Source: Musicola paradisiaca NCPPB 2511
GTDB taxonomy: Bacteria > Pseudomonadota > Gammaproteobacteria > Enterobacterales > Enterobacteriaceae
Reading direction: 5' to 3'
Assembly: GCF_000400505.1 (NCBI RefSeq)
Contig: NZ_CM001857.1
Coordinates: 1,556,386-1,586,385, forward strand
Length of the DNA: 30,000 nt
Positions 21,001 through 24,000 of the stretch are shown piece by piece. The position numbers are program-made. Within the stretch, counting starts at the first letter, position 1. Every line of letters starts with the position of its first letter.

Positions 21001-24000
21001 GGTAGGTGACTTCGTGCGTTTTTCATCGGTTGATTTTTGCTATGAAAAACCCGCCAATATCGAAGAGTATGAAGCGTTATTTGGCTGCCCGGTTCAATTT
21101 GGCATGGGGAGTAGCCGCATGTATTTTTATGCGGATGATTTACTAAAACCGCTGATCACCAAAGATGAAGTGTTACACCGGATGCATGAGAACCATGCTC
21201 AATTAAAATTAAAATCCGAAGGGGTGTTTACTCTTAAAGTACGGAAGGTTATTGAGGAGCAGATTAAAAAGGGATATTGCAATGTCATGTCCGTTTCGAC
21301 GTCATTGTATATGACGCAGAGGACGTTACAACGCCGCCTGGAAGATGAAGGTGTCTATTTCAAGGATATTTTATCCGATGTGAAAATTGAATTGTCCAGA
21401 TATTACTTGATCTATAGTCAATGTCCATTATCTCATATCGCCGATATGGTCGGATATCGAGATATCAGTAGTTTTAGTCGTGCCTGCATTCGATGGTTTG
21501 GTATGCCGCCGAGCTTTTATCGTGCTGAAAATAAAAAATGGTGAGGTTGGAACGGTTGATAAGAATCGTATTCATTGATTTCCCCACCCTAATCATGATT
21601 GCCACTCTATGTCGCGACGGCTATACCATACAGCCAGGTAAAATTAGCGTTCATTAGTTTTATATCAACGAAAGATGAATGAATACCGATGTTCGGTATA
21701 CCGCAATAACAGCCATCCATATTGACATCTATACCCTAAATCATTCGCGTTGCAGAGAGGCGGGAAGCGAGTGAGCCCCGACGCGCTTACGGCGATAACT
21801 GATTCGGGTGAATGACAAATCTGTCAGGCGCTGATTTGAATGCCGTTTGCTGCAACCCCCGAGGGCGAGGCCCAAGTATGGCCAGGTTATAACGCTAACG
21901 TACCGGCAACCTGAAGCATGACGGGTATAAAAAGGATGTTGTTACATATTACCGATGATTTATGCAACAACATCACAATGAAAGGAAGGGTTAGACTATT
22001 TGTTTGAGCAATAAATATCAGTTGCTCTGATTGACTAATTTTTTATTTAAACTGTAATTTCGATCTTTCTTCCGTGAGTAGATAAATAAAAGCAGAATAG
22101 AGCATAGCGATAAACGACCAATGCTATATAAACTTATTAGCGTGAAGAACGAGTATCTCTGTGAATAATCCATACCAATGGAAATATATGAAATCACTAC
22201 ATTTGTTATAAACCATAACAAGAGAAAGGCTAGCTTTAATATCGAATTGGTTTTGCTATCATTATTACTTAATCCTTTGGTTCCCCAACTGGTATCGTTA
22301 TAGTTTACCAGTGCATAAGTGGTTAAAAAAACGAAATTGCTGGATCAAGAATAAGGTGCAGGAACGTCCAATGGAAAAAATGTGCAGTTGATGAAGGGGT
22401 TGGTATCATAGTGGCTAAAGAAAAAATCAGTAAAAATGCAGCAATGGTGTAAATCCAGAATGATGACATATTAAAAAAAACGACACCCAGGCAAGGCGTA
22501 ACGATGAGGAATATAAGAGATAGAAATAGATAATGGATTATTTTTCCATATCTATTAGTCAGCGGAGTATAGCTACTAAATATAAGCTGTAGTCCCCAAA
22601 TGGAAAACAGCCCCCAATAGGCTATATGGGCCAAACTCATGCCGGCTACACCTTCAATATAGGTAGAAGGGAATAAATGTTGAAAGACGGTGAAGTTCAA
22701 CACACTAAACATGGCTGGCATGAAAAAGATTCTTATTGTATTAATTAATGATAAATATAATGCTATGGATATCTTCAGCTTGTTTCCTCCTCCTTTATTT
22801 TTATCCCTGAGAATCTGTGGCAGTTGGGATATGGCATGAAATCGAGCAGATATTGTGCTGTTTATCCATCGCCTGCGTTGTAAAATCAATTCGGATAATG
22901 TCTTGCAACTATCAATTTCCACACCTGCATTGGGATTAAATCCTAATTTATATTCTTGTGCATTGTTTTTTATAATTTCAAAACCAAGCACGCGATCTTC
23001 TGCTAAGTATAAATTCTTCTGCAATAAACCATCGGGCGACAATCCGCGAAAATAACCAAATAATGGAGAGGTAGGGTCACAATCATTCTTGCTAATTGCC
23101 TCCCATCGAATAAGGCTGCATGCGCCAGGAATGACCTCAAGATAACCTAAAAAATACCCTACCGGCCAGAAGCTTATTTTGTCCCATACAAAATTACTAT
23201 ATTGCCAGGATTTGTGGAGCGCACTAAAGGGTTCTGGTTTAGGTAATAAGTAAGCAGCAACCGCTGCGTAATTTTCCTGATATTCCATATCATGTAACAA
23301 ATTCATCAGGCATGATGAATCAGGAATAGTTCCAGCATCAACCTGCAGAATATAGGTTGGATTTATGCGATTACATAGGGATAAAAACATCCAGGCGTGA
23401 GAGTCAAGTTTGCCTCTGTTTTTAGATTTTAATGCCAGAATGCAACTTACCTTGTGCTCTGCATCAGGAAAGGGGACTTTATCAATATCAGTCTTATACG
23501 CATGATGAATATCAGAAAGCGACAGTGCTTTCTCATCCAGCATTAGCATCGGATAGGCATCATCTTCACGAATGACGTCTAAATTATATCCCAGCAATGC
23601 CAACAAACGTAAAGTATCAGGGGCTATGTTAGCAATACCGTCGAATATAATACATATCTTAATGTTATAGTTTATATATTGAGTTGATTTTAAATGGTTG
23701 GCATTATTAATGGCAGCTAATAATGTATTGCATATCATTGATGCATTTTCATTATATGCTGTTATTGAAATAAGTATGTCAGTTTTTACAGAGCATATAT
23801 CCTGTGGGATGATGGTCCTTTCAGTATACTTTTTTTTAGATCTATAAAATAAGATGCATTATATTGCTCTAGGCTAAGTGTCATAATAAGTATCCTTGGT
23901 ATATATGATTTAATGATGCTGTGCATCGCTTGTTAATTGATTTTTCATCATGGAATATATGTATGGCACGACCATTGGACAGGCTGTTTTAAATAAAACA

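What the first reader, a model, noticed from the sequence alone, without database searches (positions are those of the whole stretch)
22018..22345. 3' frame break at a T7 tract: the SWGTKG motif and the last TM segments continue in the -1 frame (the listed 67-aa ORF is a C-terminal fragment)
**Seen.** The central ORF ends ...LHLILDPAISFF-TAA inside a T7 run (coding strand, 22325-22331). The frame containing ORF 22018..22221 is already open from 22344. From the tract onward it encodes LTTYALVNYNDTSWGTKGLSNNDSKTNSILKLAFLLLWFITNVVISYISIG...LSLCSILLLFIYSRKKDR...

YAxxNxxDxSWGTKG is, from memory, the conserved post-TM motif of fungal chitin synthases (YAFCNxHDxSWGTKG). It is followed here by two more hydrophobic helices, the stop at 22018 and a terminator-like hairpin with a T-run. 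One additional T restores continuity.

Both breaks in this gene therefore have the same sign: each is one nucleotide short in a homopolymer, equivalent to a -1 shift. At this site the P-site codon is TTT, preceded by T and followed by a stop codon. That is a shifty-stop context in which a single-tRNA -1 slip re-pairs perfectly.

**Inference.** The four explanations given for the 5' break apply here too. Two same-sign breaks in one gene favour either a sequencing artefact or a recoding or phase-variation mechanism over random decay, though not decisively.
Basis: seen in the sequence. Interest (0 to 1): 0.7.

Follow-up and report, generated by a model that had tools for sequence, protein, structure and literature searches.

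The report
One-base deletion truncating bacterial chitin synthase
The frame break is real in this record, but it is a one-T shortening (T8 to T7) of a coding T-run in a Musicola paradisiaca chitin-synthase gene described in 2016. The gene is intact in five other sequence sets of the same species, so this is an ordinary strain-specific frameshift, or less likely a miscall, and not programmed recoding.

Summary

- **What is there.** The minus-strand ORF 22323..23738 ends AISFF-TAA in a T7 run (22325-22331). The -1 frame continues LTTYALVNYNDTSWGTKG, followed by two hydrophobic helices, a stop at 22018 and a hairpin with a T-run.
- **The gene.** It is the low-GC "second chs" of Musicola (Dickeya) paradisiaca, described by Gonçalves et al. 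2016, and it sits next to a ChiP-like porin.
- **Comparison with the same species.** Five other M. paradisiaca sequence sets carry T8 and an uninterrupted gene. These are Ech703, a 2025 draft assembly and three SRA assemblies. Their flanks are otherwise identical: 0 SNPs and 1 indel across about 29 kb against the draft. T7 occurs only in this 4.63-Mb genome and in one SRA assembly.
- **Comparison with orthologues.** The Kosakonia/Pantoea orthologues (56% identity) are in frame and have no T-run (TTT TAT TTA).
- **Conclusion on the 3' break.** It is a recent T8→T7 contraction. I rate a real null allele at about 0.65 and a miscall at about 0.15. Programmed frameshifting is about 0.03. A selected phase switch is not excluded (about 0.1).
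- **Effect.** The truncation removes the SWG motif and the last two transmembrane helices. The W→A mutation in this motif abolishes PsChs1 activity.
- **The "two same-sign breaks" argument fails.** The 5' A-run break differs in kind. It is fixed in all strains and conserved without gaps in Kosakonia/Pantoea, so it is the real recoding candidate.

The parts
22018..23884 (-). Whole chitin-synthase (chs) gene as reconstructed: 622 aa once the 5' A8 and the 3' T7 are each bridged by a -1 shift.
   Evidence: Reconstruction. Pfam Chitin_synth_1 scores 85.7 bits (cut-off 25) and Chitin_synth_2 scores 37.6 bits (cut-off 27). It is identical to M. paradisiaca proteins P0001, P0122 and P0124. The AF2 model has pLDDT 90.4 and TM-score 0.75-0.81 to solved chitin synthases.
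22325..22331 (-). T7 run on the coding strand, the site of the 3' frame break. The codons are TCG TTT TTT TAA.
   Evidence: The tract is T8 in L001, L004, L005 and L006, and T8 is implied in Ech703. It is T7 in the window and in L003.
22323..23738 (-). Central 471-aa ORF from the first in-frame ATG (MICNTL...) to TAA. It carries motifs 2-8 (DGI, KSKNRGKL, DAGT, WQYSNF, VIPGA, EDR, QRRRW).
   Evidence: It is an exact match to P0121 on the 4,631,867-bp M. paradisiaca chromosome and on an SRR29904084 contig.
22018..22344 (-). C-terminal segment in the -1 frame: the rest of helix IF3, the SWG loop, two TM helices and the stop codon.
   Evidence: This segment is 50% identical to the in-frame Kosakonia orthologue.
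22273..22290 (-). Codons for SWGTKG (chitin-synthase motif 9), residues 533-538 of the reconstruction.
   Evidence: Invariant or near-invariant in A1 and A4. The PsChs1 W742A mutation in this motif abolishes activity (PMC9556331).
22177..22233 (-). Predicted TM helix LAFLLLWFITNVVISYISI (residues 552-570), lost in the T7 allele.
   Evidence: Hydropathy score 2.16. AF2 helix 509-530 in P0001 numbering.
22081..22137 (-). Predicted TM helix ISLYSIGRLSLCSILLLFI (residues 584-602), lost in the T7 allele.
   Evidence: Hydropathy score 1.93. AF2 helix 534-581 in P0001 numbering.
21925..21974 (-). Intrinsic-terminator-like hairpin (14-bp stem, 12-nt loop) followed by CCUUUUUAUAC.
   Evidence: dG -16.5 kcal/mol, z = -4.5, 0 of 200 shuffles fold as well. 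The consensus scan missed it because the loop exceeds 8 nt.
23830..23837 (-). A8 run at the 5' break. It is a different phenomenon from the 3' break because it is conserved. It joins the short upstream frame to the main frame by a -1 shift.
   Evidence: A8 in all M. paradisiaca sets. Same arrangement with A9 in Kosakonia-like L002 and Pantoea L007.
23838..23884 (-). Upstream-frame start (ATG at 23882-23884, AAGGA 8 nt upstream) encoding MTLSLEQYNASYFIDL before the A-run.
   Evidence: This part is 56% identical to the Kosakonia N-terminus, and the conserved residues differ by synonymous codons.
24438..25781 (-). ChiP-like (OprD-family) outer-membrane porin, upstream of chs and co-oriented with it.
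   Evidence: Pfam OprD. NCBIfam ChiP scores 441 bits, below the 750 cut-off. PDB chitoporin 7vu2 at E = 6e-98. 59% identical to the porin in the Kosakonia island.
20531..21544 (+). AraC-family regulator (Arabinose_bd + HTH_18), convergent with chs and conserved alongside it.
   Evidence: 50% identical to the regulator next to the Kosakonia chs.

Best explanation
The window comes from a 4.63-Mb Musicola paradisiaca chromosome. The gene is the horizontally acquired, low-GC "second" chitin-synthase gene of that species. It is a GT2 division-1 CHS in a module with a ChiP-like porin and an AraC regulator.

Its normal state at the 3' site is TCG TTT TTT TTA (S F F L, T8), which reads straight through to the stop at 22018. 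In this genome the run has lost one T (T8 to T7), most likely by replication slippage in this strain's lineage. TAA then comes into frame after ...AISFF.

The resulting 3'-truncated product ends inside interface helix IF3. It lacks the SWGTKG loop and the last two transmembrane helices, so it should be catalytically dead. This is a recent null allele (incipient pseudogene), not a programmed frameshift.

- **Shown:** the T7/T8 polymorphism on identical flanks, the homology of the downstream frame, and in-frame orthologues without the run.
- **Inferred:** that T7 is a real mutation rather than a miscall (about 0.65 versus 0.15), and that the truncated enzyme is inactive.

The broader statement, [quoted passage not shown], I hold at about 0.85.
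For: - **T8 in the same species.** The same-species protein P0001 (582 aa) is 100% identical and reads ...AISFFLTTYALVNYNDTSWGTKG.... Its DNA (L001, GCA_051783725.1) differs from the window only by T8 versus T7: 0 mismatches over 11.5 kb and 0 differences over a further 21.2 kb.
- **More T8 sets.** Three further SRA assemblies have T8 on identical flanks. Ech703 encodes the intact 573/612-aa protein.
- **T7 is seen twice.** It appears in the window's genome (P0121 and RefSeq 510-aa P0123 on the 4,631,867-bp contig) and in the SRR29904084 contig L003. That contig is otherwise 100% identical over 7.2 kb, including two 8-nt runs. Error-free flanks argue for accurate reads, and so for a real allele.
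- **Other homopolymers are stable.** Of 15 homopolymers of 7 nt or more in the window, this is the only one that differs wherever other sequence sets overlap it.
- **Orthologues have no run.** Kosakonia and Pantoea read TCG TTT TAT TTA ACC in frame. The run is therefore a lineage-specific accident (TAT to TTT), not a conserved element.
- **The break is recent.** The downstream frame shows no decay and is identical to the T8 alleles.
- **What is lost matters.** SWG is motif 9 of chitin synthases and W742A abolishes PsChs1 activity (PMC9556331). The break lies inside AF2 helix 457-487, and helices 509-530 and 534-581 follow it.
- **The gene is already described.** Gonçalves et al. 2016 report it for Ech703 (PMC5122149).
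Against: - No reads of this strain could be inspected. The independence of SRR29904084 from the genome record is unknown, and its platform could not be determined (one search found no paper). A shared homopolymer undercall is therefore not excluded.
- A single indel as the only difference in about 29 kb of otherwise clonal DNA is also what a hypermutable phase-variation tract would look like.
- Loss of function is inferred from eukaryotic enzymes. No bacterial CHS of this family has been assayed.
- The context T TTT TTT TAA is intrinsically slippery, so some full-length protein could still be made.
Confidence: 0.65

Rival explanations
1. Sequencing or assembly artefact. The strain really has T8, and the record (with the SRA assembly derived from the same or similar data) under-calls the homopolymer by one base.
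For: - The only difference from conspecific assemblies in about 29 kb is the length of one homopolymer.
- Under-calling by one base is the typical direction of homopolymer errors (established knowledge of 454, Ion Torrent and nanopore chemistry).
- The two T7 sources may not be independent.
Against: - T7 appears in two separately built assemblies.
- The SRR29904084 contigs are error-free over 14.7 kb, including the A8 and T8 runs of the same gene. That is not what a read set prone to homopolymer errors would give.
- None of the other 14 homopolymers of 7 nt or more in the window shows a discrepancy wherever other sequence sets overlap it.
Confidence: 0.15
2. Contingency locus. The T-run is a selected, reversible slipped-strand switch that turns chitin or chito-oligosaccharide production ON (T8) and OFF (T7) within M. 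paradisiaca populations.
For: - There is length polymorphism at the run among otherwise identical genomes, 2 sets versus 5.
- The gene encodes a surface or secreted polysaccharide synthase, a class that is often phase-variable (general knowledge).
- The gene holds three runs of 7 nt or more against 0.94 expected (p about 0.06).
Against: - The run is short (8 nt, A/T) and lies near the 3' end.
- It is absent from the orthologues.
- The two other 8-nt runs in the gene never vary in the seven sets.
- The enrichment is marginal.
- There is no evidence of reversibility or of mixed populations: the SRA contig passes through the site without a break.
Confidence: 0.1
3. Programmed -1 ribosomal frameshift ("shifty stop") or transcriptional slippage at T TTT TTT TAA is the normal way the full-length enzyme is made from the T7 sequence.
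For: - It is a perfect X XXY YYZ heptamer, and the P-site tRNA-Phe re-pairs exactly after a -1 slip.
- A 0-frame stop sits in the A site.
- The slip would give exactly the T8-encoded protein.
- The gene does appear to use a conserved -1 site at its 5' end.
Against: - The site is not conserved even within the species: T8 in frame in 5 of 7 sets.
- Orthologues have neither the run nor a frame change.
- No stimulatory structure lies downstream (z = -0.5).
Confidence: 0.03

Closest known systems
Second chs gene of "Dickeya dadantii" (now Musicola paradisiaca) Ech703, ACS85192.1 (Gonçalves et al. 2016, BMC Evol Biol 16:252)
   Same: It is the same gene. The protein is 100% identical over the shared residues. 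It has the same low-GC island and the same co-oriented putative chitoporin as the paper describes.
   Different: Ech703 has T8 and an uninterrupted 3' end, while the window has T7 and a truncated ORF. The paper does not mention the 5' frame problem. The GenBank model starts at MICNTL and so omits motif 1 (TAYNE).
Eukaryotic division-1 chitin synthases with solved structures (Phytophthora sojae Chs1 7WJM, Candida albicans Chs2 7STL, S. cerevisiae Chs1 7XS6)
   Same: All nine motifs are present in the T8 protein: TAYNE, DGI, KSKNRGKL, DAGT, WQYSNF, VIPGA, EDR, QRRRW and SWG. Sequence E-values are about 3e-30. The fold TM-score is 0.75-0.81.
   Different: The bacterial protein has a short N-terminus with no Chitin_synth_1N domain and is only about 20-27% identical. 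The product (polymer or oligomer) and activity are untested. In the window allele, motif 9 and the last two TM helices are out of frame.
Homopolymer frameshift alleles and phase-variable simple-sequence contingency loci of bacteria
   Same: A one-unit length change in a coding mononucleotide run switches the reading frame between otherwise identical strains.
   Different: The run is short, A/T, near the 3' end and not conserved. No reversibility has been shown. The simpler label is an ordinary slipped-strand null mutation.
-1 programmed frameshift sites of the dnaX / IS-element type (X XXY YYZ heptamers) and "shifty stops"
   Same: The heptamer T TTT TTT precedes a stop. The 5' site of the same gene has A AAA AAA/G.
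   Different: For the 3' site the defining conservation is absent, because conspecifics are in frame with T8, and no stimulator was found.

Membership tests
Chitin synthase (GT2, division 1; Pfam PF01644/PF03142) | Significant match to the Chitin_synth_1 / Chitin_synth_2 profiles above the gathering score | tested here: met
   85.7 bits (cut-off 25) and 37.6 bits (cut-off 27) for the reconstructed protein.
Chitin synthase (GT2, division 1; Pfam PF01644/PF03142) | The nine conserved motifs listed for PsChs1 (TMYNE, DGR, KASKL, DVGT, QHFEY, VLPG, EDR, QRKRW, SWG) | tested here: met
   In the T8 or reconstructed protein: TAYNE 42, DGI 82, KSKNRGKL 153, DAGT 183, WQYSNF 227, VIPGA 251, EDR 296, QRRRW 336, SWGTKG 533. 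The corresponding columns are invariant in A1. The motif list comes from PMC9556331.
Chitin synthase (GT2, division 1; Pfam PF01644/PF03142) | All motifs encoded in one continuous reading frame in this window | tested here: not met
   Motif 9 (SWG) is in the -1 frame after the T7 run. Motif 1 lies upstream of the first ATG/GTG/TTG of the main frame. The window allele is therefore a disrupted copy of a family member.
Chitin synthase (GT2, division 1; Pfam PF01644/PF03142) | GT-A catalytic domain plus a TM channel fold like the solved CHS structures | tested here: met
   The AF2 model of the T8 protein has pLDDT 90.4 and pTM 0.91. Foldseek gives TMq 0.75-0.81 and E about 1e-21 to 7STN, 7WJO and 8K3T.
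Chitin synthase (GT2, division 1; Pfam PF01644/PF03142) | Polymerises GlcNAc from UDP-GlcNAc | not testable with these tools
   No biochemical data were found for any bacterial member. Gonçalves et al. 2016 leave it open.
Programmed -1 ribosomal frameshift site | Slippery heptamer X XXY YYZ in the 0 frame | tested here: met
   T TTT TTT followed by TAA.
Programmed -1 ribosomal frameshift site | The frameshift requirement is conserved in orthologues and conspecific strains | tested here: not met
   T8, in frame, in 5 of 7 M. paradisiaca sets. Kosakonia and Pantoea are in frame with TTT TAT TTA.
Programmed -1 ribosomal frameshift site | Downstream stimulatory RNA structure or upstream SD-like stimulator | tested here: not met
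   The 85 nt downstream fold no better than shuffles (z = -0.53). No SD-like element is evident upstream in the sequence.
Phase-variable contingency locus (mononucleotide SSR) | Tract-length polymorphism between otherwise near-identical genomes | tested here: met
   T7 in 2 sets and T8 in 5. There are 0-1 SNPs in 15-29 kb of flanks.
Phase-variable contingency locus (mononucleotide SSR) | High-frequency reversible switching within a clonal population | not testable with these tools
   This needs read-level or single-colony data.
Phase-variable contingency locus (mononucleotide SSR) | Tract maintained by selection (conserved in orthologues, or over-represented) | tested here: not met
   The tract is absent in orthologues. 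Enrichment of runs in the gene is marginal: 3 observed against 0.94 expected, p about 0.06.
Homopolymer sequencing/assembly error | The discrepancy is not reproduced in an independent assembly, and other homopolymer discrepancies occur in the same record | tested here: inconclusive
   T7 is reproduced in SRR29904084, but the independence and platform of that run are unknown. There are no other discrepancies in the homopolymers of the window that other sequence sets overlap.

The most novel reading that the evidence does not exclude
The chs gene of this plant pathogen is controlled by two slippage-prone runs.

- A conserved 5' A8/A9 run makes a -1 slip obligatory for producing any enzyme that carries motif 1. 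The slip could be ribosomal or by RNA polymerase.
- The 3' T8/T7 run acts as a strain-level ON/OFF switch. Residual -1 slippage at T TTT TTT TAA would give a trickle of full-length enzyme in the OFF state.

Together these would tune how much chitin or chito-oligosaccharide, a plant immune elicitor, is exposed.
Probability: 0.1. Interest if true: 0.6.

Novelty: already known. Interest (0 to 1): 0.2.

Why it matters
**For the 3' break itself, little.** It tells annotators that the 471/510-aa and 67-aa ORFs in this genome are two pieces of one described gene. It also shows that this strain, or this record, carries a null or miscalled allele. Anyone using this strain to test bacterial chitin synthesis should check the run first.

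**What matters lies beside it.**
- The gene belongs to a conserved three-gene module of CHS, ChiP-like porin and AraC regulator. The module is shared with Kosakonia and Pantoea, and its product is unknown.
- The 5' end needs a conserved -1 shift at an A-run. That is a better candidate for genuine recoding than the site flagged here.

Tried and rejected
**Searches that found nothing**
- Megablast of the locus against complete E. coli genomes: no match.
- tblastn against PLSDB plasmids: no match.
- Two scans of genome contigs and two of metagenome contigs for further orthologues. None was confirmed, so the low-GC subfamily is known here from only two lineages: Musicola, and Kosakonia/Pantoea.
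- Literature search for the SRA and WGS accessions, to learn the platform and strain of the T7 data: nothing.

**Tests that came back negative or weak**
- The consensus terminator scan did not flag the post-stop hairpin because of its 12-nt loop. Direct folding did.
- I looked for frameshift-stimulating RNA structure after both runs and found none above shuffles.
- I tested whether homopolymers are enriched in the gene. The result was marginal (p about 0.06).

**Readings rejected**
- "Old pseudogene": the downstream frame is identical to the intact alleles.
- "SWGTKG match is coincidental": the motif columns are invariant across 59 homologues.
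Full report
**1. Observation**

The region was read on the minus strand.
- The 471-aa ORF 22323..23738 ends ...FLHLILDPAISFF-TAA. The codons are GCA ATT TCG TTT TTT TAA, and the tract at 22325-22331 is exactly seven T.
- The -1 frame opens right after a stop at 22345-22347. It runs to the stop at 22018 and reads SSNFVFLTTYALVNYNDTSWGTKGLSNNDSKTNSILKLAFLLLWFITNVVISYISIGMDYSQRYSFFTLISLYSIGRLSLCSILLLFIYSRKKDRNYSLNKKLVNQSN.
- The 67-aa ORF 22018..22221 is the tail of this frame.
- Two hydrophobic 19-mers follow the motif, at residues 552-570 and 584-602 of the reconstruction.
- A 14-bp hairpin (dG -16.5 kcal/mol, z = -4.5) followed by CCUUUUUA sits 44 nt after the stop.

**2. 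What the gene is**

- With both breaks bridged, the product is 622 aa. It matches Pfam Chitin_synth_1 (85.7 bits) and Chitin_synth_2 (37.6 bits).
- The locus lies in a 35-42% GC island (about 20000-28000) within a 50-65% GC backbone.
- Upstream and co-oriented is a ChiP-like OprD-family porin: NCBIfam ChiP 441 bits, below the 750 equivalog cut-off, and PDB chitoporin 7VU2 at E = 6e-98. AraC-family regulators flank the pair.
- The protein search returned a 100%-identical Musicola paradisiaca protein, a 56%-identical Kosakonia/Pantoea orthologue, and then about 30-35% identical CHS of Dickeya, Pectobacterium, Brenneria and Agrobacterium, followed by eukaryotic chitin synthases.
- Gonçalves et al. 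2016 already describe this gene. They call it the second, recently transferred, low-GC chs of "D. dadantii" Ech703 (now M. paradisiaca), co-oriented with a putative chitoporin (PMC5122149).
- An AlphaFold model of the intact same-species protein is confident (pLDDT 90.4, pTM 0.91). It superposes on solved chitin synthases from Candida, Phytophthora and yeast with TM-score 0.75-0.81.
- All nine CHS motifs are present in the intact protein.

**3. The 3' break compared with other sequences**

Exact-sequence look-ups place the truncated 471-aa product on a 4,631,867-bp M. paradisiaca chromosome, which is the window's source, and on one SRA assembly, SRR29904084. Intact 573-, 582- and 612-aa products come from Ech703, a 2025 draft (GCA_051783725.1) and three other SRA assemblies.

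| Comparison | Result |
|---|---|
| Window vs the 2025 draft, window 18001-29500 | one gap, T7 vs T8, and no mismatch in 11.5 kb |
| Window vs the 2025 draft, window 420-21661 | no difference in 21.2 kb |
| SRR34321366, SRR19200047, SRR19200046 | T8 on identical flanks; one of them has a single SNP at 13057 |
| SRR29904084 | T7; otherwise 100% identical over 7.2 kb and 7.5 kb |
| The 15 homopolymers of 7 nt or more in the window | this is the only one that differs wherever other sequence sets overlap it |

The Kosakonia-like and Pantoea cypripedii orthologues read TCG TTT TAT TTA ACC (S F Y L T), in frame and without a run. The T8 run is therefore a Musicola-specific accident (TAT to TTT), and T7 is a derived, private contraction of it. 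The downstream frame has not decayed, so the event is recent.

**4. Mutation or miscall?**

This cannot be settled without reads.
- In favour of a real allele: T7 appears in two separately built assemblies. The SRA contigs are flawless elsewhere, including the A8 and T8 runs of the same gene, which is not what a read set prone to homopolymer errors would yield.
- In favour of a miscall: the difference is a one-base under-call in a homopolymer on otherwise identical DNA, and the two T7 sources may share a strain or data. No paper naming the runs was found.
- My estimates are real mutation about 0.65 and miscall about 0.15.

**5. Recoding or phase variation at the 3' site?**

- The defining property of a programmed site is conservation of the frameshift requirement, and that fails. 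Conspecifics are in frame with T8 and orthologues have no run. No downstream structure exceeds shuffles (z = -0.5). I put programmed frameshifting at about 0.03.
- Phase variation is not excluded, because a lone tract-length polymorphism in clonal DNA is its signature. Against it:
  - the run is short, A/T and near the 3' end;
  - the run is not conserved;
  - run enrichment in the gene is marginal (3 against 0.94 expected, p about 0.06);
  - the other two 8-nt runs never vary.
- I put phase variation at about 0.1.

**6. Consequence**

- In PsChs1 the SWG motif sits on the cytoplasmic loop between IF3 and TM5. The W742A mutation abolishes activity (PMC9556331).
- The HMMER alignment maps the window's SWGTKGL onto that motif.
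- In the model the break falls inside helix 457-487. The SWG loop and helices 509-530 and 534-581 follow it.
- The T7 product should therefore be inactive. This is inferred from eukaryotic enzymes and has not been tested.

**7. The 5' break is different in kind**

- The main frame has no ATG, GTG or TTG upstream of motif 1 (ILISITAYNE).
- A short frame starts at ATG 23884 with AAGGA 8 nt upstream. It encodes MTLSLEQYNASYFIDLKK and runs into A8 at 23830-23837. A -1 shift there joins it to ...KYTERTIIPQDICSVKTDILISITAYNE.
- A8 is present in all M. paradisiaca sets.
- The 56%-identical Kosakonia/Pantoea genes have the same layout: MTLDISTSNEIDFIDLKK, an A9 run (G to A, same frame relation), then KYISRTII... 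The DNA alignment is gapless from the ATG through the run into the main frame.
- The upstream-frame residues are 56% identical between lineages, the same level as the rest of the protein. Four of the five conserved non-tract residues use different synonymous codons.
- Annotation pipelines have used ATG (MICNTL, which omits motif 1), ATC, ATA, ATT and GTG as starts.
- The porin and the AraC regulator are also conserved between the two lineages at 59% and 50%, so the module appears to be functional.
- This is a credible conserved -1 recoding site, either ribosomal slippage on A AAA AAA/G or RNA-polymerase slippage. No stimulatory structure was found, and only two independent lineages are available.

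**8. Verdict**

- The 3' break is a T8→T7 contraction in a known gene. It is ordinary and of low interest, apart from a warning for annotation and strain choice.
- The conserved 5' A-run arrangement deserves its own follow-up.

Noticed in passing
window 23830-23884 (-); L002 5856-5915; L007 about 3940-4000: The 5' break at the A-run is conserved. A short ATG-initiated frame with an SD runs into A8 (Musicola) or A9 (Kosakonia/Pantoea). A -1 shift is needed to reach the main frame, which has no canonical start upstream of motif 1 (TAYNE). The alignment between lineages is gapless. The upstream-frame residues are as conserved as the rest of the protein, and the conserved ones differ by synonymous codons. 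This is a candidate programmed -1 frameshift or transcriptional slippage site.
   Followed up: partly
window 20531-27539; L002 6001-10461; L007 4001-8548: The three-gene module of chs, ChiP-like porin and Arabinose_bd-type AraC regulator is conserved between Musicola and Kosakonia/Pantoea (56%, 59% and 50% aa identity). The gene order and orientation are rearranged. The Kosakonia-like copy sits next to TraG/TraU conjugation genes, and the Pantoea copy is flanked by transposases. The module appears to be mobile.
   Followed up: partly
window 23738-23884 (-): Public annotations of this gene disagree on the start. GenBank Ech703 uses ATG (MICNTL, 573 aa) and so omits motif 1. RefSeq uses ATC (612/510 aa) or ATA (582 aa). 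Pantoea uses ATT and Kosakonia uses GTG. None uses the upstream ATG frame.
   Followed up: yes
window 22473-22499 (-): Inside the coding region, about 150 nt upstream of the break, a 6-bp G+C-containing hairpin is followed directly by an in-frame T8 run (GTC GTT TTT TTT AAT). The scan flagged it as terminator-like on the sense strand. The run is invariant in all seven sequence sets.
   Followed up: no
window 26738: All four SRA-derived contigs (L003-L006) end at the same window coordinate, inside the AraC-family gene 26592-27539. This suggests a repeat or a paralogous sequence boundary there.
   Followed up: no
L002, L005 and L009 (all from SRR19200047); window 13057: One sequencing run holds both the Musicola-type island (T8, with one T>C SNP at window 13057) and the Kosakonia/Pantoea-type chs island. 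It is therefore a mixed or metagenomic sample in which both chs lineages co-occur.
   Followed up: no
window about 19900-20500 and about 27600-28200: GC content drops sharply from 50-65% to 35-42% between about 20000 and 28000, which delimits the island. Several A/T runs of 7 nt or more cluster at its right edge (27585, 27789, 27877, 27948). The exact integration boundaries were not mapped.
   Followed up: no
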